49,811 bases of DNA from a virus. The stretch is from the IMG/VR virus record IMGVR_UViG_3300005326_000015. The stretch is one strand, 5' to 3'. The position numbers were made by a program, and so were the translations under genes. Below are positions 1 through 16,290 of this stretch, in pieces. The notes beneath the pieces are model-generated. The model saw only the letters and a program-made list of their open reading frames with translations, was not told where the DNA came from and searched no databases. Numbering within the stretch: the stretch's first letter is position 1; each line of letters opens with the position of its first letter.

Positions 1-123
1 AAGATTGTCTTTGAACTGAAGTACTTTCCGGTGCAAGCCTTTATGGACCTGGTTGGAGATGACACTTCCTATGACCCATCAGCCTTGACATTATTGCAAA
101 ATTTATATTCTGCTTTGGCTATT
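1..123. repeat. Terminal direct repeat, copy 1 (identical to 49689..49811)
   Basis: The first 123 nt match the last 123 nt base for base. An ORF reads through the junction, so this fits the overlap of a circular or permuted assembly. Unit length is 49,688 bp. Confidence 0.9.
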
Positions 124-976: not shown

Positions 977-1387
977 ATGGCAACTCTTATAAAAACGATT
1001 AAAGATAGTCTTGGTAATCTTATCGTACCAAGAACAAGAGCCATTGCCGTGACATTGGAAGATAATGTGACGAATGTGGAGCAGGCATTGGCAGGAAAAG
1101 CACCTTTGGTTCACGCGCATGGCGATTTATATTACACAGAGACTGAGGCAAATGCTTTGTTGCTTAACAAAGTGGATAAAGTATCGGGCAAGGGTTTAAG
1201 CACAAACGACTACACAACTACGGAAAAGAACAAAGTAGCGAATGTTCCTGCCGATACAACTACGGCTCTTTCAGGTAAAGCACCTGTGGTTCATAACCAC
1301 GACGATTTATATTACACGGAAACAGAAATTGACACAATGATTGGTGATATTGAGGCAGTCCTCGACACCATTTTAGGAGGTGCTTAA
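977..1387 (+). CDS. Tail-fibre repeat protein
   Basis: RBS GGGGG upstream of ATG. Internal duplication GKAPLVHAHGDLYYTETE / GKAPVVHNHDDLYYTETE (HxH fibre-repeat type). GKGLSTNDYTTTEKNKV motif is typical of Gram-positive phage fibre proteins. Confidence 0.7.
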   Translation: MATLIKTIKDSLGNLIVPRTRAIAVTLEDNVTNVEQALAGKAPLVHAHGDLYYTETEANALLLNKVDKVSGKGLSTNDYTTTEKNKVANVPADTTTALSGKAPVVHNHDDLYYTETEIDTMIGDIEAVLDTILGGA

Positions 1388-2825: not shown

Positions 2826-2846
2826 GGGAAACCCTACTTTTTTATT
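2822..2846 (+). terminator. Rho-independent terminator
   Basis: GTAGGG-gaaa-CCCTAC hairpin followed by TTTTTTATTT; it overlaps the stop codon of the 1389..2825 gene. Confidence 0.7.
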
Positions 2847-3041
2847 TCCTCCAGTTAAAACACAATGAATGAGTTATACGGAGAAAATATGAAAACACTT
2901 AACAAATTGACCTCACTTTTGCGTTGTTGCAGAAATTGATTGATTTTCTTTAGATTTAAGTAAAATATCGCCAAAAGTAAAATGTTGCAGTGTTTCGGAT
3001 AAAATCGAAATTCATCCGTTTTTGGGTAACATTAAAGGTTA

Positions 3042-3070
3042 TTTACTTTGAATAGGCACTATGATATAAT
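3042..3070 (+). promoter_or_regulatory. SigA-type promoter (lysis cassette)
   Basis: TTTACT-N17-TATAAT with a TGa extended -10 (TGATATAAT), about 25 nt upstream of the 3094 gene. Confidence 0.6.
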
Positions 3071-3093
3071 TATACCCGAAAGGGGTGTGACTC

Positions 3094-3336
3094 ATGCCTA
3101 AACAAAAACGAAGCATACCAAAAAATCAAGATGTGACTATGGATGTAAATGACATTGTGCGTCAACTAAGCGCACAATTCTCTGACCAAATTGCTGCTTT
3201 GAACCAGCAGTTGGCAGCCGCGCGCACAGAGGCCAATGTATGGCGAAATCAAGCCGCGCAGTTGGAAGGGATTTTAAGTGTTGTATTGGATGAAATTGAC
3301 GGAAAAGCCGAAGCGGCTGAGGAGGATGTCGAATGA
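3094..3336 (+). CDS. Hypothetical coiled-coil protein (first gene of lysis cassette)
   Basis: 80-aa ORF with RBS GAAAGGGG. Ala/Gln-rich helical sequence. Stop overlaps the next start (ATGA). Confidence 0.55.
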   Translation: MPKQKRSIPKNQDVTMDVNDIVRQLSAQFSDQIAALNQQLAAARTEANVWRNQAAQLEGILSVVLDEIDGKAEAAEEDVE

Positions 3337-3740
3337 ATGAATTTATTGTAAACCTACAAGAGCAACTATTAGGATTGACCCTGATAATGTGTGCTGCCTT
3401 ATTCTTCCAAATTGGCAACATGTTTGCCGGAGCCTATGTAAACAAGGAAGCCTTTGACATTAAAAAGTTCTTTGCTGGATTCAAAGGGGTCGCCATCCTA
3501 TACATCCTGTTTGTATGGCTGACTACCGGAATCACCGCGTTGCCTTATTTACTTGAAATGACCGGATTGATGACGCTTTCTACTGAAATTACAGGAATTA
3601 TTACTTATGCTGCCATTATATTCTACTGGGGCAAATACACGATTGACAGAGCCAAAGACATGGCGGATAAACTACTATTTATTAAAGACTTTCGCAAACC
3701 TGAACTGACTGAAGAACAAAAAGTTGAAGGTATAGGATAA
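3333..3740 (+). CDS. Holin-like membrane protein
   Basis: 135 aa with three hydrophobic segments (LTLIMCAALFFQIGNMFAGAYV, VAILYILFVWLTTGITALPYLL, ITGIITYAAIIFYWG) and a charged C-terminus. It lies immediately upstream of the peptidase gene. Confidence 0.6.
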   Translation: MNEFIVNLQEQLLGLTLIMCAALFFQIGNMFAGAYVNKEAFDIKKFFAGFKGVAILYILFVWLTTGITALPYLLEMTGLMTLSTEITGIITYAAIIFYWGKYTIDRAKDMADKLLFIKDFRKPELTEEQKVEGIG

Positions 3741-4525
3741 TGAATGTCTTCGCCCTTTGGGAAGCCTACTTGACTCAGGGATTCAAAAGCACACATATGG
3801 CCAATGACTACGGATGGATTCGCTTAAATTTAAGTAAACCTCCGGTGTATAGTGTCATGAAAGGTGTGGTCATTGCATCCTATTACAGTTCAGGCGGTGG
3901 AAACATTGTGGCCATTCTTGATGATTCAGGGGACTTCCACTGGTATCAATGGCGCTATGTCCACTTAGATGTTAGGTATGTAAAAATAGGAGACAGAGTG
4001 GATGTCGGACAAGTGATAGGGCTTGGAGGAAACACAGGCACAAACAGTACTGGACCTCACCTTCACATTGAATGTCTGATTGTCCCGAAAGGATACCGTG
4101 CCTTCATTTACGCAGACCGATTGAAGTATGCTGTTGACCCACGCTTCATCATGAGCACGATTCCTGGTCAACCACTGAGAGGAGAACTAATTCAAATGAG
4201 CGTCGTAGATACAAGTCTTTTACCAAAAGCCTTCCCGACCATCACGAACTTGCTACTTCGTAGTTCAACAAGTACAGCCACTTCCTTGAATAAAGTTGGT
4301 GTTTATGTACCAGCATCAGGATTGCCGTTAGCAGGAATTATTGATGTCGCAGGGTTCAAATGGTGTGCCTTGTGGTATAACAATAAAATTGTTTATGCCG
4401 CATTGAAGTACCTGAGAATCGAACCGAATGTCAAAGAAGTCGAAAAAATAGTGGAAGTTGAAAAACCGTTTGGTCCGGTAACGCTTACACAAGGTGATGT
4501 TTCAATCACGATAAAGAAGGGGTAA
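3740..4525 (+). CDS. Peptidase M23-family endolysin with C-terminal (wall-binding?) domain
   Basis: HxxxD (HMANDYG) and GNTGTNSTGPHLHIE motifs are characteristic of M23/LytM peptidases. TAATG overlap with the holin gene. Confidence 0.8.
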   Translation: MNVFALWEAYLTQGFKSTHMANDYGWIRLNLSKPPVYSVMKGVVIASYYSSGGGNIVAILDDSGDFHWYQWRYVHLDVRYVKIGDRVDVGQVIGLGGNTGTNSTGPHLHIECLIVPKGYRAFIYADRLKYAVDPRFIMSTIPGQPLRGELIQMSVVDTSLLPKAFPTITNLLLRSSTSTATSLNKVGVYVPASGLPLAGIIDVAGFKWCALWYNNKIVYAALKYLRIEPNVKEVEKIVEVEKPFGPVTLTQGDVSITIKKG

Positions 4526-4540
4526 TACCCCTTTTCTTTT
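4519..4540 (+). terminator. Rho-independent terminator
   Basis: GGGGT-aat-ACCCC hairpin containing the stop codon, followed by TTTTCTTTT. Confidence 0.65.
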
Positions 4541-4560
4541 GTGCCATAATAGTGTATAAT
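4532..4560 (+). promoter_or_regulatory. Possible promoter for 4600 gene
   Basis: TATAAT at 4555..4560 (also TGcCATAAT at 4542..4550). The -35 is weak (TTTTCT). Confidence 0.4.
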
Positions 4561-4599
4561 ATCCGCAGGGGTACAATGTAACAAGAGGAGCGTGATTCG

Positions 4600-4866
4600 A
4601 TGGACCAAGCAACATATGTAGGCATGTTTATATTCACTGTGGTAACACTTTCAGGGCTATTGGCGGTGTTTGCCAAAATCGTCACAGCGTTTGCAAATGC
4701 CGTGGCAAAATTAGATAATCTTATTCAAAAGTTTGAACTCTCAGATGCAACCAACCGGAGAGAGCACGAAGAATTATTTACGCAACTGGATGCACACAAT
4801 GAGATGATAAAAGAAGCCCAATGGTTTTGTAAATTCCAACATCCTGACCAGCCCCGAAGAATATAG
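4600..4866 (+). CDS. Small N-terminally anchored membrane protein (BhlA/UviB-like holin-type, tentative)
   Basis: 88 aa with RBS GAGGAG. One N-terminal TM segment (VGMFIFTVVTLSGLLAVFAKIV) followed by a charged helical tail. Confidence 0.55.
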   Translation: MDQATYVGMFIFTVVTLSGLLAVFAKIVTAFANAVAKLDNLIQKFELSDATNRREHEELFTQLDAHNEMIKEAQWFCKFQHPDQPRRI

Positions 4867-4877
4867 GGGCTTTTATT
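4850..4877 (+). terminator. Rho-independent terminator
   Basis: AGCCCC-N10-GGGGCT hairpin spanning the stop codon, followed by TTTTATT. Confidence 0.6.
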
Positions 4878-4899
4878 ATGGATTTATATATGATATAAT
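4871..4899 (+). promoter_or_regulatory. Promoter of the Gln-rich protein / giant ORF unit
   Basis: TGATATAAT extended -10 at 4891..4899 (the same 9-mer as at 3062..3070). The -35 is weak. Confidence 0.5.
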
Positions 4900-4927
4900 T
4901 GAACCGTAATCAAAGGAGAGTGATATT

Positions 4928-6064
4928 ATGAGTTATAACTATGGACCTACTATGCTCGCCGACAGTGGCGGATACAGTAATACAACCACGCAAGACCCTA
5001 TGAAAAACTGGTTGCAAGAGCAAATCGACCTACTCATGAGAGGCGGCGGTGGAGGAGGCTCTGCATCGAACTATATGACGAAAGCCCAAGGAATGTTAGG
5101 TCCCTTGGATTTAAGTTCGTTTGAAGAACTTCGCGGTGTCATGAATGACCAGTACAACACCAGCAGCAATTCCTTGCAAAATCAGTACAACACCATGCTT
5201 CAGCAATTAGAAAAAGCAGGCACTCAAAATAAGCAGGCTTTCGGTAAAGGCAGAGCATCCATTATGGAAAACTCATTTGAGCGTGGCCGTGATGCGTTAA
5301 GAGCCTTGTCCTCAAGAGGTATGGCTGCATCCGGACTTCAGCAATTAGGTGATGTTCAGCAACGGATGGAAACAGGCCGTCAGACTTCCGGTTTGGCTGG
5401 TCAATTCTATGATGTTCAGGATAAACTGGCAGACAGCCAGGTCCAGGGTCAACAAAACTATGAGACCCAAAAACAGACCCTTGAGAATTCATTGAATCAG
5501 CAAATGGCTCAATTAAGTGCTCAGGAACTTCAATTCAAAAATTCTTACCAGCAGCAAGTGGCTTCCCTGGCAATGCAGATGCAACAACAGGCAGCGCAGG
5601 CTTCTGCTGCGAAATTAAACAGGGACCTGCAATTATTATCATTAAGACAGCAAATGGAACAAACTGGAGGAGACCCATTGACTGCTCCGGCAAATCAAGG
5701 GGGCATGATGGCTATTGCGATGGAACCTGGAGCAAATGACCTTGTTAAAATTGCTCAATTACAATCACAATTCAACTTGACACCTGAACAGGCAAAGTCC
5801 TACTTAGGTAAAGTTGAGGGACAATTACAACAACAAGTGTACCAGCAGGAATATAGCACCTTAATGAGTGCCGCACGGTCAGGCAAATACACACCATCCC
5901 AAATGAAGGAAATGATAAAAACCCTGAAGGACAGCGGTATTACCTTGAAACCTTCAGATGAATCCATCTTAATATCTATGGTCACTCCGGCAAGTAAAAA
6001 CACAATCGGCGGTGTGACGGACGCTTACGGTTACAGAGAATTGCTGGGGGACCAGTGGAAGTAG
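4928..6064 (+). CDS. Gln-rich coiled-coil protein (putative internal virion / ejection protein)
   Basis: 378 aa with RBS AAAGGAGAG. Contains a GGGGGG tract and long Q/N-rich heptad-like regions. Co-transcribed with the giant ORF. The functional call rests on position and composition only. Confidence 0.55.
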   Translation: MSYNYGPTMLADSGGYSNTTTQDPMKNWLQEQIDLLMRGGGGGGSASNYMTKAQGMLGPLDLSSFEELRGVMNDQYNTSSNSLQNQYNTMLQQLEKAGTQNKQAFGKGRASIMENSFERGRDALRALSSRGMAASGLQQLGDVQQRMETGRQTSGLAGQFYDVQDKLADSQVQGQQNYETQKQTLENSLNQQMAQLSAQELQFKNSYQQQVASLAMQMQQQAAQASAAKLNRDLQLLSLRQQMEQTGGDPLTAPANQGGMMAIAMEPGANDLVKIAQLQSQFNLTPEQAKSYLGKVEGQLQQQVYQQEYSTLMSAARSGKYTPSQMKEMIKTLKDSGITLKPSDESILISMVTPASKNTIGGVTDAYGYRELLGDQWK

Positions 6065-6075
6065 GAGGACATAAC

Positions 6076-9000
6076 ATGTCAAAAATTGATGAACTATTGA
6101 ATCGTTTAGGCCAATCAGCAGCCAAGGGTACGATTGATGCCATCGGACAAACACAGGGGGCGGCTAATAAGTCGCCTCTTTTGGAAGTTCAAAATCAAGT
6201 AGATAACTTAGCAGCGCGTATGCAGGGTTCGGGCATAGACCCGACTCAATTCACAGATACCCGAAACCCTTTAGAAAAGATGTTGAATCTTCGTCCTGAC
6301 CAAAATCTTTTGTTTGACATCTTTGAAGTCATTAACCGTCCTCAGCAAGCCTTGTTTGGAGGAATCCAGCATTTGCAAGAAGGCGGAGATTTTCTAAAAG
6401 GCATGGAACAAGGACTTACAAGGACAGGGGCTGAAGAATTCTCCGGCGGTCAAATCCTCCGTAATATGTTTTCAGGAGGCAAGCGCGAAGATGGCACGAT
6501 GGACTGGACAGACTGGGTTGGTTTTGGGTTGGATGTATTTGCTGACCCTGCTGACCTTGCTTTTCTACCTGTAAGTGCAGTAGCCAATGTCGGACAAGCA
6601 GCAACGAAATTGACAGGTAAAGCATCCACGAAGATGGACAACCTGATTAAAGGTGGCATGGCTGCCTTAGGAAAAACAGATGTAAATACCGTGGCTAAAG
6701 TAGCCAATGTGGCTGATGATGTCATGGATGTCGGAGAAAAGACCATGGCTTCCATGGCTAAAGATTCTTATAAACTAATTCGCGAAGGAGAGAAATTTGT
6801 ATCTCCTACGGATTTAACTATGCGTGCTTTATTTGGCACCGTGTCCTTTGGATTAAAAGGAGCGGACGCTAAGTTGGCTGAACCTTTAATGACGGTTCTT
6901 GGGAAAGCAGAAGACTATGGCAACTTCAAGAAAGTTGTATCTAACTTCTTCAATCAAACGAAAGCCTTCTCAAAGGAAGCCGTGGCTAACATTCGCTTGG
7001 CTTTTGGTGAAGAAGCCTTTGCTAAGAAATACATGTATGAGGCTTTGAAAGCCACCGATGAATTGTTAGAATCCTGGGCCGGACAATTAGGAGTTACACC
7101 ACAGCGCTTGTCAGAAATGATGGGCGAATACTGGTCGGTCACTTCTCCGGAGCAAATGATGAGAGCCTCCGATATTCTGTTAAAACAACGCGGAGCACAG
7201 TTGATTCCTTATTCGGATGAAATGTATGAGAGTTTGAGCAAAATGGTCAACTCAGAGCAAGCCATTGGTGATTTGATGCCTGTCATCGAATTTGAAGGTT
7301 TGTCGTATATTGACCTTCGTAAAATAACCAGGGAAATGGTTGACCAAAGTGCAAAAGAAACTTCGTTGGCTATCCCTAAAATGATTAAACATTTGGATGT
7401 AGATAACATCTCAAAGTATGCAGATATGCCTTTATTTGAGCAAGCATACACGGACTGGTATGTTCAATACCAACGCATGAGAAAAGGTTTATGGTCCATT
7501 CAAGGCTCTGAATTCGGTATGGGTACAGAGTACTTGAGAAATGTGCTAACGGAAGATGCAAGACATGCACTGGCTGAAGTGGATGCGTTGAACCATGTCT
7601 TTGATTTAGGCGGACAGACCACCAACAAGACTATGGGAGACCCGACGCTGTTTGCTGGCCGTAAGTATGGGGCTGACCCGATTACCGCAAGTAACTGGAT
7701 TAAGGCTGAGCGTACTTTAGATACCATGGAGCGTATGGAAAAGGTGTTAGGAGCACGCGCTAAAGTAAGCAATGCTACCGCAGACGCTATTCAAGCGGCT
7801 AAACTTGTTGAAGCCCAAGCCCTTGAAGCAGGAAGTAAGATTAAAATTGACCGTCGTGTCCGTGACCTGTTAGATGAGTTTATGGAAGAAACAGGTGTCA
7901 CCCAAGACATGCTGGATATTTATACCGTTATGATGGAAAACAAACTGGCTAAAACTGAAGTGGGCCGTGACTTGATTCGTCAAGCCAAAGCCGTCGGTTT
8001 AGTTGGAGAAGATGAGAAAATCTTAGATGTGTCTTCTCATCGCTTTACTGTGGGAGAAAAGAGTGGCTCTACCTTAATTGAGACTCTTGACCCTGAAGAC
8101 TATAACCGTTTGGTGTCATTAAAAGCATCAGACCCTAATTTCCAAAGTAAAGTATCGAAAGAAGTTTATAATGCCATCGGCTCTCAACCGATTCCTATGA
8201 AGTTCAAAGATGGTACGGCTTTAACGAAGCAACAGGCCAAAGGTTACAATAAATTGACCACTTGGGTTCAAAGACTAAAAGAACTTCGTGCTCCGACATT
8301 GACAGGGATGAAGTCTGAAGGTATCATGCAGATTGTTGATGACACAGTATGGTCCAAAATTGATGATGAATCCTTGAAGGGTATTGCATACAGAAGCAAA
8401 GTCATTGAAGCCACGGACGATATTGCAGAAGGTTTGACCAGTGTGCCTTTGAAACATGTGGATTTGGAAGAAGCCGCACAAGGCTTGGCCAAAGAACCTG
8501 ACTTCTTAAAGAAAGTTGTTGACAACTTAAACAAGGCCACAAACAACGCATCGTCTGAAGTTGCTTTGGGTGATTTGATTAGCAGACCTGAATCTATTAT
8601 TGACTACGCGCGCCGTGAAGTTTTAAGACAAGCACGCGAACAGTACACATATAGGCAAATGAAGACAGGCATCCAGGAATTACTTGGACGCGCTGCAACG
8701 GATGAAGATATGGCAAGAGCCGTCGCTTTGGCTGAAGCAGGAAAACCTTTGCACCCACGCTTATTTGACCCGAACTTTAACATTTGGCAGCGTACCATCG
8801 ACAATTTGGACGGTGACTTCGCTAAGGCCAAAGAGTTAGGTAAAGGTTTGAAGGATGGCACTTATGACCTCAAGACAGGTAAGAAACTTGACCTTGAAGG
8901 TGATGACAGTTACATGGTGTCCTTTGAGCAATCTTCGGACGCTTACACACCGGAAGAATACAATAAAATTATCAAAGAACTCATGGACGAAACTGGCAGC

Positions 9001-12000
9001 GAAGCCTATTTAGGTGTTTACGGTCAGCCTGAAATCAGTTTTAAGGTGGCTACGGAAGAAGAGGCCATGGCCTTAGCCAAGCGCTTTAATCAAGAATCCA
9101 TTTACTTTAACGGTAGAGTATTAGAGGATGGTACAAAAGTCCCTGCTGACTTGATTATGAATCCGGACTACAATCCTGCAACGAATCAAATTATTCGTGA
9201 TGTTGTGGAAGAAGTCCCTGTAACCAAAGCGCCGGAGCCTATTATCACTCCTGAAGACATTAAAGCACCGGAACCTGTCAAGGCTCCTGAGCCTGCTGCT
9301 CCTGCTGAGAAAACATATCTTGATAAGAAAATTGAACTTGATGAATTTGAGACAAAAGAATTGTCTTCGATAATGAATATCAATAAGCGGGGGACTTCTG
9401 TAAAACCTTTCAGAAAGAAAGTCTTGTCGAAAGACCTTGATGATTATATTGCTAAAGGATTAAGTGATGATGTTGGCGAAGATTCGTTCTTCAGAGCCTT
9501 CAATATTACAGACCATAAAGGGGCAAAAGGACGCTTAGAAGGAAGAGATTATGAACCTTTGACAAAAGCGCAATATGCAGACCGTGGGCTTGAAAAGTAC
9601 ACTCCTTTGAACAGTAACGCCCCAAAACTCAGAGTTGTGGACAGAGAACTGGCACAAAACCATCATGAAATCAAACGCGTACGAAGAGCCATGGAAAAAC
9701 TTGACGCGCAGATGGGTACAAATTATGCCAACACTGGCTTGCTGGGTGAGATTTACAAAGAAGTAGATGAAACAGCCGATGCGTTGGCAAAGATGAAACC
9801 TGAGGGGCATCAGATTTATAAGACAGCCGCAGACAGCAGAGACAAATTAGTTGGTAAACTTCAAAAAGACTTGAAACTTCCTTCTAAAAAATCCGTTGAT
9901 GCGTTGGCAAATGAAACATTAGTTGATAATGCTTTCTCAAACAGCCGTGTAGCCAGTGAGTTGCGACTAAGGGCAGCAGATTATCCTGTTGTTGACTCTT
10001 TCACGATGCGAAGTGAAGTTATGGAAGTGTTGTCTGAAGATGCTTATGCAATGATGACAGGCAACATTTTAAGTAAAGAATTTAATGACCGTTTTGGAAC
10101 CATTGCTGGAAGAACAAACCTAAATACACCTTTCTCAGAAGAAACTCAGACTTACCTTCAAAGATTGTACGATGAGGTTCAAAAAGTTAGACAGGGTTCC
10201 TTCCCTTATGCAAAGTTTATGCAAGATGGTGTACTTGATGAAGAGAGAGCCTTTGAGGCTTTAAATGATTACATGAAGTCTGTCAACGGAATGTCAGTGC
10301 CTGAATTGCAAGAAGAGATGAGAAGGGCTTATAACGCTATTGACGAGATTAAAAGGACAAAATATGACTTGAGACAGGTGCTTGAATCAGAAGAAGCATT
10401 ACAAAATCTTCAAAACACCTATCAAAAAACAAACAACAAGGCCTATCACTATGGTGACTTAGGTATAGGCAGAGATACGACTTTCAAAAATATGGGTAGT
10501 AGCAGAGGCACAGGGCACTTTGGTACAGGCACTTACTTCTTGGGAGAAGAGGCAGCAGAAAGTACAGGCAAAATATCGTCTTATGCAGGCCGCCCTTTGA
10601 ATGAAGTAAACTTTGATGACTATGCTACATTTAAGCCAGCAACAGAAGAAGCAGGATTTGCTTTACATGATGGATTAAAAGAAATCAACGCTGTCAGTGA
10701 CAATGTGCAAAGCATGTGGACTGGCCGACCTTACACCGATGCTGAAGGATGGACCCACTATCCTGAGACGATGCAAATGACAGACCGTGAAATGGCTAAA
10801 ATCGTTAGAGAAGCCATGACCAACGGTAAGTTGAGCACAGACTTGAGTAAAGTTATGGATGATGCCTTAGATTACAACCAACGAGCCATTTCCGCTGGTA
10901 AAATTGATTTATATTATGCTAACTTATTTGATTCATTTGTAGAAGAATTTTCAGAAAAGGGAGCAGACACCTTGAACAGATATTCTGCCTTGCTACCTGC
11001 TAATTTGAAAACTGTGTTCGATGATTTGATTGCAAAGACAAAGGATGGTGTGGCTGAAGTTTCCGACTTTACAGGAAGAGAAGTTGGTGACATCGTAAAT
11101 ATCTTTGAAGGCATGTCGAACATTCATAAAGCCTCCAACAAAGCCTTGAAGAAGTTTGAGAAGGCAGGCTTGCCAAGGATGAACAAGAGCGTTGAAGAAT
11201 TTGTGACTTCCTTGATAGAGACAGTTAAAAAAGGTATGTCAGGCGATGACATGGCTCCGACGGCTTCAACCAATTTCATGAAAATGATTGGCTATGAAGG
11301 TATAGATGTCCGTGGATTGAAAGCATTAGACAACACTACCTACGGCAGCGTTATATACGATGTCAAAAAGGCTGCACAGGAAGCACCGGAAGCGGCTGCT
11401 GTTAAGGTAACACCGGATGACTTCGCTGCTAAAGCACCTGAAAAGGTAACGGAGACTCTGCCGTTTGACTACAACACCAATGACTACAAAGGGACTGTAC
11501 CTGCACGCACCTTAAATGCTCAAAGCAAAAAAGTCACGCTGGCTACTCCTGAAGAGTTTAATGTCATGGAATCCTTGTATAAAAGGTCAGGACGAAGGGC
11601 TTTTGCAGATGACCCTTATGTCTTTGAAAGATTAGTTGCAGGGAAACCTGGCATGAAAATGAAGACTATATTTGAGATTGAGGACACATTAAACAATATA
11701 AATCAAAAAATCAATGAAGGTACGATGAGCCTTACAGAAAAAGAACTGGATGACTTGTACACCTTGATGCAAAAGATTGATGCTGAATTCGGAACGGATT
11801 TGTCCAAACATTCAATACTTTCCAAAAAGAAATTTGATACTTATAACAAACGACTCAGTGACTACAACGCGCAAAAGTTGGCTTCGACACCTAAAGTGGA
11901 CGATTCTGTGGACATCCTGGATGAAGTCACCGGAAAAGCGCCGGAGCCTGAGTTGGATATTAACGCGATGTTCAAAGAGGCTGAGCCTCCAGTTCAAACA

Positions 12001-14139
12001 GCGAAGGCCGTTAACCCTGAATTTGAATATGAAGCATTGAACGACGCAGACTTTGTAACAGACTTGAACGCTAAAGTTCAAATAAATCCATTCGTTGAGA
12101 AGGTTTCCGTGAACCAGGCCACCTTATTCCAGTTCGATGACAAGACAATTCAGAAGTTAGCCGAGCGGATGAGAGCCAAAGGGATATTCACGGAGCAGCA
12201 AATTGCTGATATTACATCTCCGTTGGGTCAGAAGTGGTTAAACAAGTACATTGATGAGCACCACAAAACCGTGTTCCAAGGTACGGAAGCATATATTGAC
12301 AAGACTTTGAAGTGGTTGGATGACACTCAGGCTCAAAAGGTCTTCGAGACATCCGTCACAGCCTCTATGGCCGATTTGATTGAAACCTTGCCAAGAACAG
12401 TACGCTCAGCCAAAGTGTTTGATGCAATACTGTCTCCGTCGGTGGCTGAAATGGGAAGCCCGAACTCACCATTCCAATGGATTGAATTCGAGGATGAACT
12501 GGTCAGCGCTGTTAAAAACGAACAGGGTGAAGTCATTAAAACCATTACCAAAAAGAAGATGCCAAAAGCACCGTTGGGCTTCAAACGGATGTCCAATTCC
12601 CAGGTGCAGGAGTTTATTACAAAGATTGAGCGCTTAAACAATTTCATTCAAAGTGATGAGTTGCTGAGCGTGGCTGACTGGATGAAGAGTCAACTTGCGA
12701 AGAACGCAAAGAACCCAACAGGCCAGTTAGTGATTGAGGCCAATGTGGCGCGGGTGCTTGAGTTGGATTACAACAAAGTATCCGGAGCGTTGCTGAAATT
12801 CGTTGACTTCTCAAACAACTTATTCAAACGAAACAAACTGTTATCCCTTGCCTTCAACATCCGCAACAGCATCGGTATTACGACGAACATGTTCTTGTCG
12901 GGTATGGAGTTTACAGACATTGCGCGCAGTTTTGCAAGGGCAGACAACATCTTCAAACAAGGACCTGAATTGCTGGCCAGGGCTGCAAGAGCCGACATAA
13001 ACACGCTGAGCAAGATATTCAGTCCGGAAGAGATGAAGATATACCAGGCCTATGAAATGTTCATTAAAGGACAGTTCACGCTGCCAAGAACCATAAAGCA
13101 AGCGATTGCGGAAGGTCTCTCCGGCTCAGGGTCTGAGTTGATGGATTTGGATGGAATTAAAAAGGACATCACGAAAAATGCTAAGATGCCTGAATGGCTC
13201 CAAAAGAGCAAGGATGCCCTGGATACTGTGTCGATTGTCAATGGATGGGGAAATGAAACTGTGGATGCTTATGGTCGTATGGCTGTAATGGTGCATGCCA
13301 TGGAAAATCCTGAGTACCTGCAAAAGTTGATGGTCCAGGACCCGATTGCCGCCGTTCGCTTAGCCATGTTTGACCCAAAGAACCTGTCCTCTTATGAGAC
13401 AGAGATTGCCAAGCGGGTCATCCCATTCTATTCATTTACGAAGCAGAACTTAGTCTATCATATGCAAAACCTGCCAAACAATGCGGTCCGCTACAACAGA
13501 ATCCAAAAAGGATTGCGCAGCGCATGGAATGGTATGGGATTAAAACAAGAAGATTTGGAAGCCTACAAACTGGAGCAAATGTATATCCCGATTCCAGGGA
13601 TGTCAGCGGATGGCAAGTACTTCGCCATTAAAGCGAACCTACCACAATCCGACTTCGGCGAATTCTTAGGTAATCCAATTCAACGAGTGCTTGCATCCAC
13701 TTCCCCGCTCATTCGGGCCGGATTTGAAGTGGCAACCAACAAGCAAATATTCACCGGACAGGAAATATCCGAATTCCCTGGTCAGCGCAGCAGCACGATG
13801 CCATTCCTTGATAGGAATACAGAGTACTGGCTGAGCCAAGCAGGGTTGGATGTTCCAATGAAAGGTCTTACCGGATTATACAACGCAGCAACAGGGCAAG
13901 ATGTCCAAGGAGGTCTCATGCAAGCGTCAAACATTATCTCTCAAGGGTCCAAAGAGCAAGGTCAACTAAACCGCGCCTACCAAACTTTAGAGAGATTGCA
14001 ACAAGGTGTCCGCTACCTTAAACAAGAGGAAAAGGACTTACTCAAACTGGCTGAAATAAACAGTCCGACCCCAGCACTGGATGCAGCCCAAAACAAAATG
14101 GATGCACTTATGGCTAAACTAAAAAAAGGCCCCCGATAA
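6076..14139 (+). CDS. Giant multidomain (polyvalent-type) protein, 2,687 aa, with putative ADP-ribosyltransferase-like segment
   Basis: Uninterrupted 8.06-kb ORF. ATG at 6076 lies 6 nt after AGGAGGA (the track start 6055 is a GTG inside the previous gene). Pro-rich KAPEP linkers at 9226..9309, ~11430 and ~11935 suggest domain boundaries. The motif YHYGD..(N22)..GHFGTGTYFLGEE..(N19)..LNEVNF lies at 10444..10614. A bidirectional terminator follows. Confidence 0.9.
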   Translation: MSKIDELLNRLGQSAAKGTIDAIGQTQGAANKSPLLEVQNQVDNLAARMQGSGIDPTQFTDTRNPLEKMLNLRPDQNLLFDIFEVINRPQQALFGGIQHLQEGGDFLKGMEQGLTRTGAEEFSGGQILRNMFSGGKREDGTMDWTDWVGFGLDVFADPADLAFLPVSAVANVGQAATKLTGKASTKMDNLIKGGMAALGKTDVNTVAKVANVADDVMDVGEKTMASMAKDSYKLIREGEKFVSPTDLTMRALFGTVSFGLKGADAKLAEPLMTVLGKAEDYGNFKKVVSNFFNQTKAFSKEAVANIRLAFGEEAFAKKYMYEALKATDELLESWAGQLGVTPQRLSEMMGEYWSVTSPEQMMRASDILLKQRGAQLIPYSDEMYESLSKMVNSEQAIGDLMPVIEFEGLSYIDLRKITREMVDQSAKETSLAIPKMIKHLDVDNISKYADMPLFEQAYTDWYVQYQRMRKGLWSIQGSEFGMGTEYLRNVLTEDARHALAEVDALNHVFDLGGQTTNKTMGDPTLFAGRKYGADPITASNWIKAERTLDTMERMEKVLGARAKVSNATADAIQAAKLVEAQALEAGSKIKIDRRVRDLLDEFMEETGVTQDMLDIYTVMMENKLAKTEVGRDLIRQAKAVGLVGEDEKILDVSSHRFTVGEKSGSTLIETLDPEDYNRLVSLKASDPNFQSKVSKEVYNAIGSQPIPMKFKDGTALTKQQAKGYNKLTTWVQRLKELRAPTLTGMKSEGIMQIVDDTVWSKIDDESLKGIAYRSKVIEATDDIAEGLTSVPLKHVDLEEAAQGLAKEPDFLKKVVDNLNKATNNASSEVALGDLISRPESIIDYARREVLRQAREQYTYRQMKTGIQELLGRAATDEDMARAVALAEAGKPLHPRLFDPNFNIWQRTIDNLDGDFAKAKELGKGLKDGTYDLKTGKKLDLEGDDSYMVSFEQSSDAYTPEEYNKIIKELMDETGSEAYLGVYGQPEISFKVATEEEAMALAKRFNQESIYFNGRVLEDGTKVPADLIMNPDYNPATNQIIRDVVEEVPVTKAPEPIITPEDIKAPEPVKAPEPAAPAEKTYLDKKIELDEFETKELSSIMNINKRGTSVKPFRKKVLSKDLDDYIAKGLSDDVGEDSFFRAFNITDHKGAKGRLEGRDYEPLTKAQYADRGLEKYTPLNSNAPKLRVVDRELAQNHHEIKRVRRAMEKLDAQMGTNYANTGLLGEIYKEVDETADALAKMKPEGHQIYKTAADSRDKLVGKLQKDLKLPSKKSVDALANETLVDNAFSNSRVASELRLRAADYPVVDSFTMRSEVMEVLSEDAYAMMTGNILSKEFNDRFGTIAGRTNLNTPFSEETQTYLQRLYDEVQKVRQGSFPYAKFMQDGVLDEERAFEALNDYMKSVNGMSVPELQEEMRRAYNAIDEIKRTKYDLRQVLESEEALQNLQNTYQKTNNKAYHYGDLGIGRDTTFKNMGSSRGTGHFGTGTYFLGEEAAESTGKISSYAGRPLNEVNFDDYATFKPATEEAGFALHDGLKEINAVSDNVQSMWTGRPYTDAEGWTHYPETMQMTDREMAKIVREAMTNGKLSTDLSKVMDDALDYNQRAISAGKIDLYYANLFDSFVEEFSEKGADTLNRYSALLPANLKTVFDDLIAKTKDGVAEVSDFTGREVGDIVNIFEGMSNIHKASNKALKKFEKAGLPRMNKSVEEFVTSLIETVKKGMSGDDMAPTASTNFMKMIGYEGIDVRGLKALDNTTYGSVIYDVKKAAQEAPEAAAVKVTPDDFAAKAPEKVTETLPFDYNTNDYKGTVPARTLNAQSKKVTLATPEEFNVMESLYKRSGRRAFADDPYVFERLVAGKPGMKMKTIFEIEDTLNNINQKINEGTMSLTEKELDDLYTLMQKIDAEFGTDLSKHSILSKKKFDTYNKRLSDYNAQKLASTPKVDDSVDILDEVTGKAPEPELDINAMFKEAEPPVQTAKAVNPEFEYEALNDADFVTDLNAKVQINPFVEKVSVNQATLFQFDDKTIQKLAERMRAKGIFTEQQIADITSPLGQKWLNKYIDEHHKTVFQGTEAYIDKTLKWLDDTQAQKVFETSVTASMADLIETLPRTVRSAKVFDAILSPSVAEMGSPNSPFQWIEFEDELVSAVKNEQGEVIKTITKKKMPKAPLGFKRMSNSQVQEFITKIERLNNFIQSDELLSVADWMKSQLAKNAKNPTGQLVIEANVARVLELDYNKVSGALLKFVDFSNNLFKRNKLLSLAFNIRNSIGITTNMFLSGMEFTDIARSFARADNIFKQGPELLARAARADINTLSKIFSPEEMKIYQAYEMFIKGQFTLPRTIKQAIAEGLSGSGSELMDLDGIKKDITKNAKMPEWLQKSKDALDTVSIVNGWGNETVDAYGRMAVMVHAMENPEYLQKLMVQDPIAAVRLAMFDPKNLSSYETEIAKRVIPFYSFTKQNLVYHMQNLPNNAVRYNRIQKGLRSAWNGMGLKQEDLEAYKLEQMYIPIPGMSADGKYFAIKANLPQSDFGEFLGNPIQRVLASTSPLIRAGFEVATNKQIFTGQEISEFPGQRSSTMPFLDRNTEYWLSQAGLDVPMKGLTGLYNAATGQDVQGGLMQASNIISQGSKEQGQLNRAYQTLERLQQGVRYLKQEEKDLLKLAEINSPTPALDAAQNKMDALMAKLKKGPR
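12064..12081. repeat. TTGAAC-N6-GTTCAA palindrome (copy in giant ORF, in-frame LNAKVQ)
   Basis: ttgaacgctaaagttcaa; TTG is a codon in the ORF frame. Confidence 0.9.
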
Positions 14140-14150
14140 GGGAGCCTTTT
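14128..14150. terminator. Bidirectional terminator between convergent blocks
   Basis: GGCCCCC-gataa-GGGAGCC hairpin (one mismatch), flanked by an A8 run upstream and TTTT downstream. It sits between the stops of the 6076..14139 (+) and 14153..15043 (-) genes. Confidence 0.6.
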
Positions 14151-14152
14151 CT

Positions 14153-15046: not shown

Positions 15047-15301
15047 TTAACCCTCCATTTTCGTTATTTCATAATCAAAGAATAAACGGATGCTCTTCTT
15101 ATTCTTCCCCATCCCGCCATTATGGCCGTGAGGTACTGGCTCTCCAAAATCGACATAATACATATCCATTTCCTTGTAGGCCTCGTATCGGTCTATTTTG
15201 GCAACGGTACCTACCATGTCCTGGTAGATTTCGGAATTAGGTATTGTGAGGTCAGGAGAGGTCACTTTGACTCTATCTCCTACTTTGATGATTGCTGGCA
15301 T
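15047..15301 (-). CDS. Hypothetical small protein (SH3/KOW-like N-terminus?)
   Basis: The start at 15301 (MPAIIKVGDRVKV) follows GGAGGG and overlaps the upstream stop (TAATG). The longer track ORF has no RBS. Confidence 0.55.
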   Translation of the reverse strand: MPAIIKVGDRVKVTSPDLTIPNSEIYQDMVGTVAKIDRYEAYKEMDMYYVDFGEPVPHGHNGGMGKNKKSIRLFFDYEITKMEG

Positions 15302-16290
15302 TATTGCCCTCCTTTCAAGATGGCGGACCATCGTTTGACAATATAGTCATTTTGCGGCTCATACAATGGCAGCCGCTCAGGTGATGTTGGAAAATCTTTC
15401 CAGTCATAATTTCCATGAGGCACTGTTGGGTCATCCGTGAATGGATACCATACCACAGGTGTGCCTAAGGCTTGCGCTTCCAATGTGACCATCCCGAAGG
15501 TCTCAAAGTCACTGAGCATAAACAGGAAGTCTGCATTTCGCATATACGGATAAGGGTTTGCGCGTGGTCCTATAAACAAGGAGCGCTCATGGTTAAGCAA
15601 CTCATCAGGGACATATTGCCACGCGGCTTCGACATGAGGCTCTCCGACAATGACCAGGAATAGGTCTTCTCTTTCATTCAGGATTTCCAAGGCGCGCACC
15701 CATCCTTTTTCCGGAGAGATGCGACATACCATTAGGCCTCTCAAATACCCATCAGGCCACAGGGTCTGTAAACCTTTCATGAGGTCAGGCATGATTTTGC
15801 TTGATTTTCTCATGATGTTATTTACATCTAATATGTTTGGGATGACATGATATTCTGAGCGTGGCACTTCCAAACTGAAGGTCTCATATTGCCATTGACT
15901 GACAAACACTTTAGGCATGTCTTCAAATCCCAACGGTCCTTTTAGAAGACTCCGCGGGCAATGCAGCCAAGCCACTTTTCGGGAGGATGTCACAAACTCA
16001 GAGATGTCTTTCTTGCAGAAGGGTGAGCAGTAAACCAACACATCCACATGCTGCGGCTTCTTGCTGCGCTCTACACGCGTCACTCCTCCCACTCTTCCAA
16101 CTCTATCATGACATAAGCGCTTTGTAAACATAATTTCGTCAAAAACCTTAATCATTTTGTCGTCACCATCCTCATAACAGAGGCTGACATCGAACTCCAT
16201 GGTGTGTAATAGCATCCGTGCCAAATTGTACACCGCCATCTCAACTCCTCCTAAGACTGGCTTAGGTATATAAAACATTATTTTTTCCAT
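15301..16290 (-). CDS. GT-B fold glycosyltransferase (GT1/GT4-like)
   Basis: 329 aa. C-terminal ...FMLSDFETFGMVTLEAQALGTPVV... matches the E-x-FG-x4-EA-x2-G-x-PV signature of family 4/1 glycosyltransferases. Confidence 0.75.
   Translation of the reverse strand: MEKIMFYIPKPVLGGVEMAVYNLARMLLHTMEFDVSLCYEDGDDKMIKVFDEIMFTKRLCHDRVGRVGGVTRVERSKKPQHVDVLVYCSPFCKKDISEFVTSSRKVAWLHCPRSLLKGPLGFEDMPKVFVSQWQYETFSLEVPRSEYHVIPNILDVNNIMRKSSKIMPDLMKGLQTLWPDGYLRGLMVCRISPEKGWVRALEILNEREDLFLVIVGEPHVEAAWQYVPDELLNHERSLFIGPRANPYPYMRNADFLFMLSDFETFGMVTLEAQALGTPVVWYPFTDDPTVPHGNYDWKDFPTSPERLPLYEPQNDYIVKRWSAILKGGQ

What the first reader, a model, noticed from the sequence alone, without database searches (positions are those of the whole stretch)
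6076..14139. 2,687-aa giant ORF: candidate virion-delivered polyvalent protein
A single ORF occupies 16% of the genome.
- It forms its own transcription unit with a Gln-rich 378-aa protein. The promoter is at about 4891 and a bidirectional terminator lies at 14128. The unit sits between the lysis cassette and the convergent early block.
- Low-complexity KAPEP-type proline linkers divide it into several modules: 9226..9309, and again near 11430 and 11935. Apart from one ART-like segment I recognise none of them.
- It has no Walker A, HExxH or DxDGD motif.
- In a tail-tape-measure-less, podovirus-like genome, a protein of this size is most plausibly an internal or ejected virion protein. Known analogues are N4 vRNAP, T7 gp16 and MuF-linked polyvalent proteins, which carry enzymatic effector domains that act on the host at injection.
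- The modules at roughly the N-terminal 1,000 aa and the C-terminal 650 aa (with RVIPFYSFTKQNLVYHMQNL) are uncharacterised.
Basis: partly seen in the sequence, partly recalled or inferred. Interest (0 to 1): 0.8.

Follow-up and report, generated by a model that had tools for sequence, protein, structure and literature searches.

The report
Giant phage ejection protein with cargo
The 2,687-residue gene most likely encodes this short-tailed phage's large capsid-internal "ejection" protein: a conserved carrier scaffold related to a protein seen inside a cyanophage capsid, enlarged by about 1,500 residues of inserted, mostly unknown passenger modules.

Summary
The ORF is real: ATG 6076 to stop 14139, 2,687 aa, 16% of a complete 49.7-kb podovirus-like genome.

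It has no Pfam, PHROG, NCBIfam, PDB-sequence or GenBank-phage BLAST match, but it is not an orphan. An exhaustive profile search with its C-terminal ~600 aa finds 9,580 protein clusters. Typical members are 1,100-1,450 aa and also share its N-terminal ~330 aa. Each member examined is the last gene of the structural operon.

Profile-profile comparison links the C-terminal block to gp26 of cyanopodophage A-4L (probability 97-99%, E 1e-11 to 9e-16). Cryo-EM places gp26 in that phage's capsid-internal pre-ejectosome. An AlphaFold model of a compact member matches pieces of giant "polyvalent" phage proteins (Foldseek E down to 4e-15).

The window's copy carries about 1,500 extra residues between the two blocks. 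Elsewhere it occurs alone or fused to head-internal MuF-type proteins. Every ART membership test was negative or inconclusive.

The protein and 138 of 143 relatives contain no cysteine.

This is a new, expanded member of a known kind, and its effector enzymology is unproven.

The parts
6076..14139 (+). Giant ORF, 2,687 aa, with no cysteine. Proposed large ejection (internal virion) protein carrying inserted passenger modules.
6076..7095 (+). N-terminal conserved block (aa 1 to about 340). Motifs: TDTRNPLEK..LNL..DQN.LFDIFE.INRPQQALFG and GF.LDVFADPADLA. Invariant residues include Q41, D61, R63, E67, P89, G149, D153, D157, P158 and D160.
   Evidence: Present at the N-terminus of 119 of 136 listed family representatives. 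Invariant columns. Only a 22-27-column motif match to A-4L gp27.
7096..8565 (+). N-proximal region (aa about 341-830). It is shared with the closer relatives only, and up to aa about 545 with compact members.
   Evidence: BLAST maps
7711..12246 (+). Expansion relative to compact family members (aa about 546-2057). It lies where the compact homologue P0061 has a low-confidence loop (residues 538-552).
   Evidence: P0061 aligns to query 39-545 and 2058-2678. pLDDT is below 50 at P0061 538-552.
9226..9309 (+). Pro-rich KAPEP-type linker (aa 1051-1078).
10435..11412 (+). Motifs: HYGDLG, R.TGHFGTGTYF, LHD, and GYEGIDVRG...DN..YGSVIYD. It is split by a helical insert of about 190 aa (about aa 1546-1725). 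Function unknown.
   Evidence: Alignments A6, A11 and A12. Found stand-alone and fused to Phage_min_cap2 or MuF_C proteins. Core pLDDT 83-97. No ART match.
11413..12000 (+). Second and third APE-type linkers (about aa 1780-1800 and 1950-1975) flanking a small beta-rich orphan module (aa about 1800-1950).
12337..14115 (+). C-terminal conserved block (aa 2088-2680), the gp26-like ejection-protein module. Motifs: NNLFKRNKLLS..FNIRN..G..TNM.LSG, AVRL.MFDP..LS, RVIPFYSFTKQNL, and PLIRA.FE.ATN..IFTG. Invariant residues include N2264, R2401, E2441, F2451, Y2452, N2458, P2523, E2529 and E2551.
   Evidence: 9,580 representative proteins at E<=1e-3. hhalign to the A-4L gp26 family gives 97.4%, E 1.2e-11. 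The family alignment gives 98.6%, E 9e-16.
4928..6064 (+). Conserved partner gene: a 378-aa Gln-rich protein with no cysteine. Probably a second ejection protein.
   Evidence: Homologues lie immediately upstream of the family gene in 5 of 7 related loci compared (BLASTP E 6e-53 to 6e-5). No match to A-4L gp25-gp29.
4891..4899 (+). Extended -10 promoter-like element, TGATATAAT.
   Evidence: Read directly from the sequence. Not listed by the consensus scan.
14121..14152 (.). Bidirectional intrinsic-terminator-like hairpin, shared with the convergent YqaJ-type exonuclease gene.

Best explanation
**What it is.** The gene encodes the phage's large ejection (pilot, or internal virion) protein. Its N-terminal block (about 340 aa) and C-terminal block (about 600 aa) form a conserved all-alpha carrier scaffold. 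The C-terminal block is homologous to gp26 of cyanopodophage A-4L.

**Inferred mechanism.**
1. The protein, probably together with the 378-aa partner encoded just upstream, is built into the procapsid core above the portal.
2. It is surrounded by the packaged DNA.
3. At infection it is expelled through the portal and short tail, where it helps the DNA cross the envelope.

**The expansion.** The window's copy has about 1,500 extra residues inserted at a surface loop between the two halves. Pro-rich linkers divide this insert into modules that ride into the cell as passengers. At least one module is a mobile domain that other phages attach to head-internal MuF-type proteins. It is therefore probably an effector acting early in infection. 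Its chemistry is unknown.

**Shown versus inferred.**
- Shown here: homology, family size, architecture, synteny, mobility of the domain, and cysteine exclusion.
- Inferred: packaging, ejection and effector activity of this particular protein.
For: 1. **Family.** An exhaustive profile search with the C-terminal block found 9,580 representatives at E<=1e-3 and 850 at E<=1e-30. The block is always C-terminal. 119 of 136 listed representatives also carry the N-terminal block. Median full length is 1,376 aa and ten members exceed 2,000 aa.
2. **Homology to A-4L gp26.** The family alignment gives probability 98.6%, E 9e-16 over 631 columns. The window's own C-block alignment gives 97.4%, E 1.2e-11, aa 2088-2680 against gp26 385-1016. 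The C-block scored E 0.26 against gp27, and other unrelated query-template pairs among A-4L gp25, gp27, gp28 and gp29 scored E 0.07-0.98.
3. **Location of gp26.** Cryo-EM and virion mass spectrometry place gp26 in the capsid-internal pre-ejectosome, in contact with DNA (PMC12002296).
4. **Fold.** The model of compact member P0061 has pLDDT 79 and pTM 0.78. It gives 61 BFVD hits at E<=1e-3, the best at 4e-15. They include the gp26 homologue of Arthronema virus TR020, 'Internal protein D' of a Bordetella podophage, and pieces of giant proteins carrying LPD, ART-PolyVal, Zeta-toxin, RelA/SpoT and lytic transglycosylase domains.
5. **Synteny.** The gene is the last one of the structural operon, preceded by the partner gene and facing the replication genes. 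A-4L, TR020 and PTXU04 have the same layout.
6. **Relatives with data.** Relative P0010 carries a Pfam ART-PolyVal domain. API480 gp16 is a remote member (hhalign 85.9%, E 5e-6). It gave 71 peptides in particle mass spectrometry (PMC6937236).
7. **Mobile module.** The aa 1454-1779 domain occurs alone. It also occurs C-terminal to Phage_min_cap2 (P0186) and together with MuF_C (P0214).
8. **Cysteine.** There are no Cys in the giant (0 of 2,687) or the partner (0 of 378). Replication-side proteins have 1.29% and other late proteins 0.39%. 138 of 143 full-length family members have none.
Against: - There is no direct evidence that this protein is packaged or ejected.
- The gp26 link is remote (about 13% identity) and covers only the C-terminal 22% of the protein.
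- The N-terminal block has no established counterpart in A-4L.
- The core model found nothing in the PDB, not even the solved A-4L pre-ejectosome (best E 0.31). The solved state may differ from a monomer prediction.
- No catalytic domain is recognised in the window's protein.
- The mobile domain matched no ART or other enzyme family.
- The remaining inserted modules have no homologues and were modelled poorly, so 'effector cargo' could instead be structural filler.
- The API480 mass spectrometry used unpurified particles and also detected non-structural proteins.
Confidence: 0.7

Rival explanations
1. It is a purely structural ejection protein with no effectors. The extra 1,500 residues would be inert spacers or capsid-core filler. 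They might lengthen the conduit through a thick Gram-positive wall or tune the packaged volume. The 'ART-like' domain would be a protein- or DNA-binding adaptor.
For: No enzymatic family was detected anywhere in the protein. The inserted modules are mostly helical, poorly modelled and orphan. The ART tests were negative. Middle-region length varies widely in the family, from 1,100 to 4,031 aa.
Against: The aa 1454-1779 domain has a set of invariant polar residues (R, H, Y, R, H, D, D). It also exists as a free-standing 180-230-aa protein and as a C-terminal fusion to MuF-type head proteins. That pattern is typical of delivered toxins or effectors (PMC5512222). Relative P0010 carries a genuine ART-PolyVal domain.
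Confidence: 0.22
2. It is a tail fibre or host-specificity protein. This is how databases label the A-4L gp26 homologues (PHROG 19395; several GenBank records).
For: PHROG 19395 and GenBank annotations call gp26 homologues 'tail fiber protein; host specificity'. The gene lies downstream of the tail genes.
Against: Cryo-EM places gp26 inside the capsid (PMC12002296). The family model is almost entirely alpha-helical, with no beta-helix or fibre repeats. The window already has a fibre gene with an S74 chaperone domain at 46982-49147. The family's conserved parts are its two ends, whereas receptor-binding tips are normally the variable part.
Confidence: 0.03
3. It is a virion RNA polymerase or another early-acting enzyme of the N4 gp50 type. 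Alternatively, it is a non-virion anti-defence protein.
For: Its size and position resemble N4 gp50. No phage RNA polymerase was detected elsewhere among the proteins scanned.
Against: There is no DxDGD or other polymerase motif. The middle region, where N4 places its polymerase, is the variable part of the family and is absent from compact members. There are no structural or sequence hits to polymerases. Sigma-70-like promoter elements are present.
Confidence: 0.03

Closest known systems
gp26 of Anabaena cyanopodophage A-4L (A4), together with its neighbour gp27: outer layer of the capsid-internal pre-ejectosome (PDB 9K2V; PMC12002296)
   Same: The C-terminal 600 aa are homologous by profile-profile comparison (97-99%). 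The fold is all-alpha. The gene lies at the end of the structural operon, facing an exonuclease, DNA polymerase I and primase-helicase block. A protein of about 380 aa is encoded in the same module of both phages.
   Different: Identity is only about 13%. A-4L splits the function over gp27 (1,717 aa) and gp26 (1,114 aa), joined by a Cys1715-Cys5 disulfide. The window has one Cys-free chain. The window's N-terminal block matches gp27 only in one short motif. The host is probably a Firmicute, not a cyanobacterium. There is no PHROG 19395 hit.
Polyvalent proteins of phages (Iyer et al. 2017, PMC5512222), for example Escherichia phage PTXU04 gp25 (2,197 aa, needed for infection by CRISPRi-ART, PMC11879866)
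   Same: Both are giant multi-module proteins encoded among the late genes. The modelled core of the family matches the C-terminal piece of PTXU04 gp25 (Foldseek E 3e-8) and many proteins annotated as LPD-containing. One family member (P0010) has a Pfam ART-PolyVal domain.
   Different: The window's protein has none of the Pfam domains that define polyvalent proteins. Only one candidate catalytic module is visible. No profile-level sequence similarity to PTXU04 gp25 was found.
MuF-type or minor-capsid-protein-2 fusions carrying C-terminal toxin or effector domains (SPP1 gp7 / Mu F family)
   Same: The aa 1454-1779 domain is also found C-terminal to Phage_min_cap2 (P0186) and in a protein with MuF_C and a nucleotidyltransferase domain (P0214). 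The same passenger therefore uses two kinds of head-internal carrier.
   Different: The window's protein has no MuF domain. Its carrier is the gp26-like scaffold, and the passenger sits in the middle of the chain rather than at the C-terminus.
T7 gp14/gp15/gp16 and N4 gp50 (vRNAP)/gp51/gp52 ejection proteins
   Same: The proposed role is the same: capsid-internal proteins of short-tailed phages, expelled before or with the DNA. The largest of them carries an enzymatic passenger (a transglycosylase in T7 gp16, an RNA polymerase in N4 gp50).
   Different: No sequence or fold similarity to the solved T7 or N4 proteins was detected. No transglycosylase or polymerase motifs are present.
Paenibacillus larvae podophage API480 gp16 (1,631 aa)
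   Same: It comes from the closest cultured relatives (large terminase 38.5% identity). It is the last structural gene. It is a remote member of the same superfamily (hhalign 85.9%, E 5e-6) and shares the IPFY motif. It was abundant in particle mass spectrometry.
   Different: It is not detectable by BLAST or HMMER from the window's protein. It lies upstream of the lysis genes, not downstream. It has no N-terminal block match.

Membership tests
gp26-like ejection proteins (A-4L gp26 / PHROG 19395) | Sequence or profile homology to gp26 | tested here: met
   hhalign gives 97.4% (E 1.2e-11) for the window's C-block alignment and 98.6% (E 9e-16) for the family alignment. Comparisons of unrelated query-template pairs among A-4L gp25, gp27, gp28 and gp29 scored E 0.07-0.98.
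gp26-like ejection proteins (A-4L gp26 / PHROG 19395) | Match to the PHROG 19395 profile | tested here: not met
   The giant has no PHROG hit and neither does P0061. A-4L gp26 itself scores 1,835 bits.
gp26-like ejection proteins (A-4L gp26 / PHROG 19395) | All-alpha multi-domain fold | tested here: met
   The model of compact member P0061 is almost entirely helical (pLDDT 79). It matches the predicted structure of the TR020 gp26 homologue (Foldseek E 4.8e-10). No match to the solved 9K2V chains was listed.
gp26-like ejection proteins (A-4L gp26 / PHROG 19395) | Located inside the capsid and expelled at infection | not testable with these tools
   This needs virion proteomics or cryo-EM. Indirect support comes from API480 gp16 peptides in particle mass spectrometry (PMC6937236).
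Polyvalent proteins (Iyer et al. 2017) | Two or more domains of disparate biochemical activity in one polypeptide | tested here: inconclusive
   There are several linker-separated modules, but none is assigned to an enzyme family.
Polyvalent proteins (Iyer et al. 2017) | Presence of LPD or other signature Pfam domains | tested here: not met
   No Pfam hit passed any cutoff for the window's protein. Relative P0010 has ART-PolyVal (E 1.8e-10).
Polyvalent proteins (Iyer et al. 2017) | Encoded among virion or late genes | tested here: met
ADP-ribosyltransferases (ART superfamily, including ART-PolyVal PF18760) | Profile match to an ART family | tested here: not met
   No ART family appeared for the giant, for 10 domain-containing proteins, or for 20 compact copies scanned at E<=10. 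hhalign against the ART-PolyVal region of P0010 gave probability 0.5%. A profile search against PDB sequences found nothing.
ADP-ribosyltransferases (ART superfamily, including ART-PolyVal PF18760) | ART fold (split beta-sheet core) | tested here: inconclusive
   The domain core is confidently modelled as five or six short strands plus helices. Foldseek found no ART in the PDB. The domain is split by a 190-aa insert and embedded in a 1,200-aa query, so the test is weak.
ADP-ribosyltransferases (ART superfamily, including ART-PolyVal PF18760) | Catalytic H-Y-E or R-S-E triad | tested here: inconclusive
   An H.G motif (nearly invariant H) and G.G.YF (invariant Y) resemble the first two elements. 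The position before the last strand is an invariant G-S (YGSVIYD), not E. The comparison with PARP-type motifs rests on my own knowledge.
N4-type virion RNA polymerase | Polymerase catalytic motifs in a conserved central domain | tested here: not met
   No DxDGD motif is present. The central region is not conserved in the family. There are no polymerase hits.
Tail tape measure protein | Match to tape-measure profiles, in a long-tailed genome context | tested here: not met
   There are no such hits. The genome is podovirus-like.

The most novel reading that the evidence does not exclude
Two linked readings remain open.

(a) The family may be a single-chain version of the disulfide-linked gp27-gp26 pair of cyanophage A-4L. 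The passenger modules would then sit where gp27's variable body is, in the DNA-contacting outer layer of the capsid core.

(b) The R.TGHFGTGTYF / YGSVIYD domain may be an undescribed enzymatic effector. It could be an ART-like enzyme lacking the canonical catalytic glutamate, or something else. Phages would deliver it through at least two unrelated head-internal carriers: the gp26-like scaffold and MuF-type proteins.
Probability: 0.3. Interest if true: 0.65.

Novelty: new member of a known kind. Interest (0 to 1): 0.5.

Why it matters
- **An anchor for a dark family.** At least 9,580 protein clusters of 1,100-4,000 aa have no Pfam, PHROG or NCBIfam model and no hit in cultured-phage records by BLAST. 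They now have an experimentally grounded anchor, the A-4L pre-ejectosome protein gp26.
- **Annotation fix.** Databases label gp26 homologues 'tail fiber; host specificity'. That label looks outdated.
- **Gram-positive phages.** The ejection machinery may reach podophages of Gram-positive bacteria. Those proteins are little known.
- **Where to look for injected proteins.** The variable middle of the family (up to about 2,900 aa), and in particular the mobile aa 1454-1779 domain, is a defined place to search for new proteins that phages inject to take over the host or counter defences.
- **A simple sequence signature.** Near-total cysteine exclusion may help to recognise ejected proteins.

Tried and rejected
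- **Database searches of the giant, all empty:** megablast and tblastn against 50,697 phage records, and tblastn with compact member P0040. Pfam, PHROG and NCBIfam scans of the giant and its partner also gave nothing.
- **PDB sequence searches:** phmmer and profile searches gave only coiled-coil noise.
- **Word-index homologue search:** it returned only 21-27 relatives and made the family look rare. The exhaustive profile search corrected that impression.
- **MAFFT misalignments:** alignments of a window segment with full-length homologues, or with mixed fragment sets, were misaligned (A2, A3 tail, A7, A8; checked). They were not used for modelling.
- **Foldseek against the PDB:** nothing significant for either model. 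The weak hit to the A-4L pre-ejectosome chain 9k2v_A (E 0.71) was not used as evidence.
- **ART-like domain against the ART-PolyVal region of P0010:** no similarity.
- **A-4L comparisons that failed:** HMMER of the family profile against A-4L proteins was not significant; only profile-profile comparison worked. The partner protein against gp25-gp29, and the N-block against gp25, gp28 and gp29, gave nothing. The N-block against gp27 gave only a 22-27-column motif (probability 7-12%), which I treat as unproven.
- **PTXU04 gp25:** no profile-level similarity.
- **API480 gp16:** nothing by BLAST or HMMER; detected only by hhalign.
- **Walker-A-like GMAALGKT:** rejected as a chance match.
- **Membrane insertion:** no segment reaches a transmembrane-like hydropathy.
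Full report
**Observation**

The ORF exists as described. The mechanical ORF list gives 6055..14139 from a GTG (2,694 aa).

The window ends in an exact 123-bp overlap. It is therefore a complete circular assembly of 49,688 bp, and the gene takes 16% of it.

The gene is preceded by a Gln-rich 378-aa gene (4928..6064). Upstream of that lie an extended -10 element (TGATATAAT, 4891-4899) and a terminator that closes the preceding gene (4515-4535). The giant gene ends in a hairpin flanked by A- and T-runs, shared with the convergent exonuclease gene.

The long KAPEP-type linker at aa 1051-1078 is confirmed. HExxH and DxDGD are absent. One loose Walker-A match (aa 194-201) is not conserved in homologues and is chance. 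No segment has transmembrane-like hydropathy.

**Genome context**

- Plus strand: terminase, a portal with T7-type connector similarity, a putative scaffold, the major capsid protein, a 715-aa tail protein, and a fibre with an S74 chaperone domain.
- After the assembly junction come more tail-like genes. Then there is a holin-like 135-aa membrane protein, an M23 peptidase and an 88-aa membrane protein, which together look like a lysis cassette. The 378-aa gene and the giant follow.
- Minus strand, convergent: a YqaJ-type exonuclease, a glycosyltransferase, an SNF2 helicase, DNA polymerase A, a primase-helicase, and a Sak-like annealing protein.
- No tape measure protein and no tRNA were found.
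- The nearest cultured phages are the Paenibacillus larvae podophages API480 and SV21. The large terminase shares 38.5% identity (E 3e-93) and the portal 24.7%. A Firmicute host is likely.

**It is not an orphan**

Direct searches were empty. These were megablast and tblastn against 50,697 phage records, Pfam, PHROGs and NCBIfam, and PDB sequences.

The word-index homologue search returned only 20 relatives of 1,477-3,343 aa. BLAST maps showed that they share the first 250-800 aa and the last 600 aa, with a variable middle.

An exhaustive HMM search with a curated alignment of the C-terminal block (A4) changed the picture:

- 9,580 representative proteins (clusters at 50% identity) matched at E<=1e-3, 6,174 at E<=1e-10, and 850 at E<=1e-30. 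The block is always at the C-terminus.
- Of 136 listed representatives, 119 also have the N-terminal block. The rest are fragments.
- Median full length is 1,376 aa. Only ten of 160 collected members exceed 2,000 aa.

The window's protein is therefore an expanded member of a very large, unnamed family known only from metagenomes.

Compact member P0061 (1,148 aa) aligns collinearly to query aa 39-545 and 2058-2678. The extra 1,500 aa thus sit between the two halves. In the P0061 model that junction is a low-confidence loop (residues 538-552).

**Synteny**

In every locus examined, the family gene is the last gene of the structural operon. A homologous protein of 330-450 aa precedes it, and the exonuclease, SNF2, PolA and primase-helicase block faces it. 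A remote member (P0026) sits at the end of a tail module with an SU10-type adaptor, just before an endolysin gene.

**Structure**

AlphaFold2 on P0061, with a 58-sequence alignment, gave pLDDT 79 and pTM 0.78. The model is almost entirely helical.

- Foldseek found nothing in the PDB (best E 0.31).
- Against predicted viral structures (BFVD) it found 61 hits at E<=1e-3, the best at 4e-15, with 800-1,300 aligned columns.
- The hits are pieces of giant phage proteins. UniProt names them after LPD, ART-PolyVal, Zeta-toxin, RelA/SpoT, lytic transglycosylase or helicase domains.
- Hits from named phages include PTXU04, Cellulophaga phi19:3, Ralstonia phage Alix, Microbacterium phage Shocker, Arthrobacter phage GurgleFerb, a Bordetella podophage ('Internal protein D'), and a 1,091-aa protein of Arthronema virus TR020.

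**Link to a solved ejection protein**

The TR020 protein is a homologue of gp26 of Anabaena phage A-4L (tblastn E 2e-81). I built a six-sequence gp26 alignment from cyanophage records and compared profiles locally.

| Query | Template | Probability | E-value | Columns |
|---|---|---|---|---|
| Family alignment A10 | gp26 family | 98.6% | 9e-16 | 631 |
| Family C-block only | gp26 family | 98.4% | 7.6e-15 | 505 |
| Window's own C-block alignment (aa 2088-2680 vs gp26 385-1016) | gp26 family | 97.4% | 1.2e-11 | 507 |

The signature motifs line up:

- IPFYSFTKQN aligns with VRPFANWSMQS.
- PLIRAGFEVATNKQIFTG aligns with KPAGLLLGIDSFTG.

The C-block scored E 0.26 against gp27. Other unrelated query-template pairs among gp25, gp27, gp28 and gp29 scored E 0.07-0.98.

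Cryo-EM and virion mass spectrometry of A-4L show gp26-gp29 forming a pentameric pre-ejectosome inside the capsid, above the portal. In it, gp26 and gp27 form the outer layer and grip the first circle of DNA. The C-terminal helix of gp27 is disulfide-bonded (Cys1715) to Cys5 of gp26 (PMC12002296).

The A-4L genome has the same overall layout as the window.

The N-terminal block matched gp27 only through a short motif (GF.LD..LDP.D). This gave E 0.0024-0.0055 and probability 7-12%, from two independent query alignments. The match is suggestive but not established.

**Cultured and experimental anchors**

- API480 gp16 (1,631 aa, last structural gene) is invisible to BLAST and HMMER. It matches the C-block profile by hhalign at 85.9%, E 5e-6.
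- In mass spectrometry of API480 particles, gp16 gave 71 peptides, the most among the entries seen in the table excerpt, and 61% coverage. The particles were unpurified (PMC6937236).
- PTXU04 gp25, a 2,197-aa 'putative polyvalent protein', is required for infection by CRISPRi-ART (PMC11879866). Its relation to the family rests on Foldseek only.

**The inserted modules**

It shows the following features:

- **Motifs.** Its motifs are HYGDLG, R.TGHFGTGTYF, NLYKP, LHD, and LGYEGIDVRG..DN..YGSVIYD.
- **Invariant residues.** Positions 1477, 1481, 1487, 1506, 1531, 1744 and 1752 carry invariant or near-invariant R, H, Y, R, H, D and D.
- **Insert.** In the window a helical insert of about 190 aa splits the domain.
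- **Distribution.** A profile search found 47 proteins with it. Most are free-standing proteins of 180-230 aa. One fusion is C-terminal to Phage_min_cap2 (P0186). Another protein (P0214) combines it with MuF_C and a nucleotidyltransferase domain.

That distribution is the pattern described for passengers of head-internal proteins (PMC5512222).

ART membership was not confirmed:

- No Pfam ART hit for the giant, for ten carriers, or for 20 compact copies scanned even at E<=10.
- No similarity to the ART-PolyVal region of relative P0010.
- No PDB sequence hit.
- No ART among Foldseek hits for the window model.

The window model (aa 830-2029) has mean pLDDT 57, although the domain core reaches 83-97. 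The fold test is weak because the domain is split and embedded in a long query.

The motifs recall H-Y-E ARTs, but the canonical acidic position is G-S. That comparison rests on my own knowledge.

The other modules have no homologues and only low to moderate model confidence:

- aa 831-1045, with a small ferredoxin-like unit
- aa 1075-1450, helical
- aa about 1800-1950, beta-rich

**Cysteine exclusion**

| Protein set | Cys count | Cys frequency |
|---|---|---|
| Giant | 0 of 2,687 | 0% |
| 378-aa partner | 0 of 378 | 0% |
| Other late proteins | 18 of 4,593 | 0.39% |
| Replication-side proteins | 93 of 7,213 | 1.29% |

The chance of zero Cys in 2,687 residues is 9e-12 at the genome-wide rate and 3e-5 at the late-protein rate. 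Of 143 full-length family members, 138 have no cysteine.

This fits a protein that leaves the cytoplasm and must pass through a narrow channel. The cause is not established.

**Conclusion**

The most likely reading (confidence about 0.7) is that this is the phage's large ejection protein. A gp26-like scaffold, formed by the N- and C-terminal blocks, has been enlarged by a linker-segmented insert. At least one module of that insert is a mobile passenger domain.

- Shown here: homology, family size, architecture, synteny, mobility of the domain, and cysteine exclusion.
- Inferred: packaging, ejection and effector activity.

Three corrections apply. First, the termini are the carrier, not effectors. 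Second, ART is unconfirmed. Third, T7 gp16 and N4 vRNAP are analogies only.

The thing is a new, unusually large member of a known kind. Its value lies in anchoring a large unannotated family to a solved structure and in pointing to an uncharacterised passenger domain.

Noticed in passing
window 1-123 and 49689-49811: The two ends share an exact 123-bp overlap. The window is therefore a complete, circularly assembled genome of 49,688 bp. A 136-codon open frame without a stop runs across the junction.
   Followed up: partly
window 6076-14139 and 4928-6064; family members P0002-P0163: The giant (2,687 aa) and its partner (378 aa) contain no cysteine. Replication-side proteins of the same genome have 1.29%. 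138 of 143 full-length family members also have none. The cause is unknown.
   Followed up: partly
window 3333-4866: This looks like a lysis cassette lying upstream of the giant's transcription unit. It has a 135-aa protein with at least two hydrophobic helices (holin-like), a 261-aa M23 peptidase, a strong terminator (4515-4535), and an unlisted 88-aa ORF (4600-4866) with an N-terminal membrane helix. In A-4L an M23-type peptidase is part of ejection protein gp28, so a virion role for the peptidase is not excluded.
   Followed up: partly
L013 (Anabaena phage A-4L) 16766-20110; PHROG 19395: Databases label gp26 homologues 'tail fiber protein; host specificity', 'tail protein', or even 'DNA-directed RNA polymerase' (Pbo-yong3). 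Cryo-EM places gp26 inside the capsid. The annotation looks outdated (PMC12002296).
   Followed up: yes
L001 (GCA_037963435.1 contig) 1681-9336, protein P0010: This 2,551-aa family member carries a genuine Pfam ART-PolyVal domain (aa 1615-1735) and a faint ParB_N hit, in addition to the aa 1454-like domain (aa 749-1048). The variable middle of the family therefore does take up known polyvalent-protein domains.
   Followed up: partly
L004 10001-22096, protein P0023: This is the largest family member seen: 4,031 aa in a 46.8-kb contig, about a quarter of that genome. It has no Pfam domain at all.
   Followed up: no
window 30650-31447 (-): A 265-aa protein has pentapeptide repeats plus DUF5758 and is unusually Cys-rich (3.4%). 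Pentapeptide-repeat proteins can mimic DNA (my own knowledge), so it is a possible anti-defence or anti-gyrase early protein.
   Followed up: no
window 15301-16290 (-) and 33674-34318 (-): The early and replication block contains a family-4 glycosyltransferase with a weak hit to 'GT4 in conflict systems', and a SprT-like metalloprotease. The same glycosyltransferase position is occupied in relative L004.
   Followed up: no
window 977-1387 (+): A 136-aa protein contains two copies of a motif GKAP.VH.H.DLYYTETE. It hits tail-fibre PHROGs only over short stretches and is probably a fibre-associated repeat protein.
   Followed up: no
L013 20116-25269 (A-4L gp27), aa about 1440-1455: gp27 has a GEWGSGTYF motif that resembles the GHFGTGTYF core of the window's mobile domain (hhalign over 17 columns, probability 8%). 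The Pbo-yong3 gp27 homologue is annotated 'mono-ADP-ribosyltransferase-like' in GenBank. Whether gp27 carries a related passenger domain was not resolved.
   Followed up: partly
tool behaviour (versus 41): The word-index homologue search found 21-27 relatives, whereas the exhaustive profile search found 9,580 clusters. For long, fast-evolving phage proteins the first search can make a common family look rare.
   Followed up: yes
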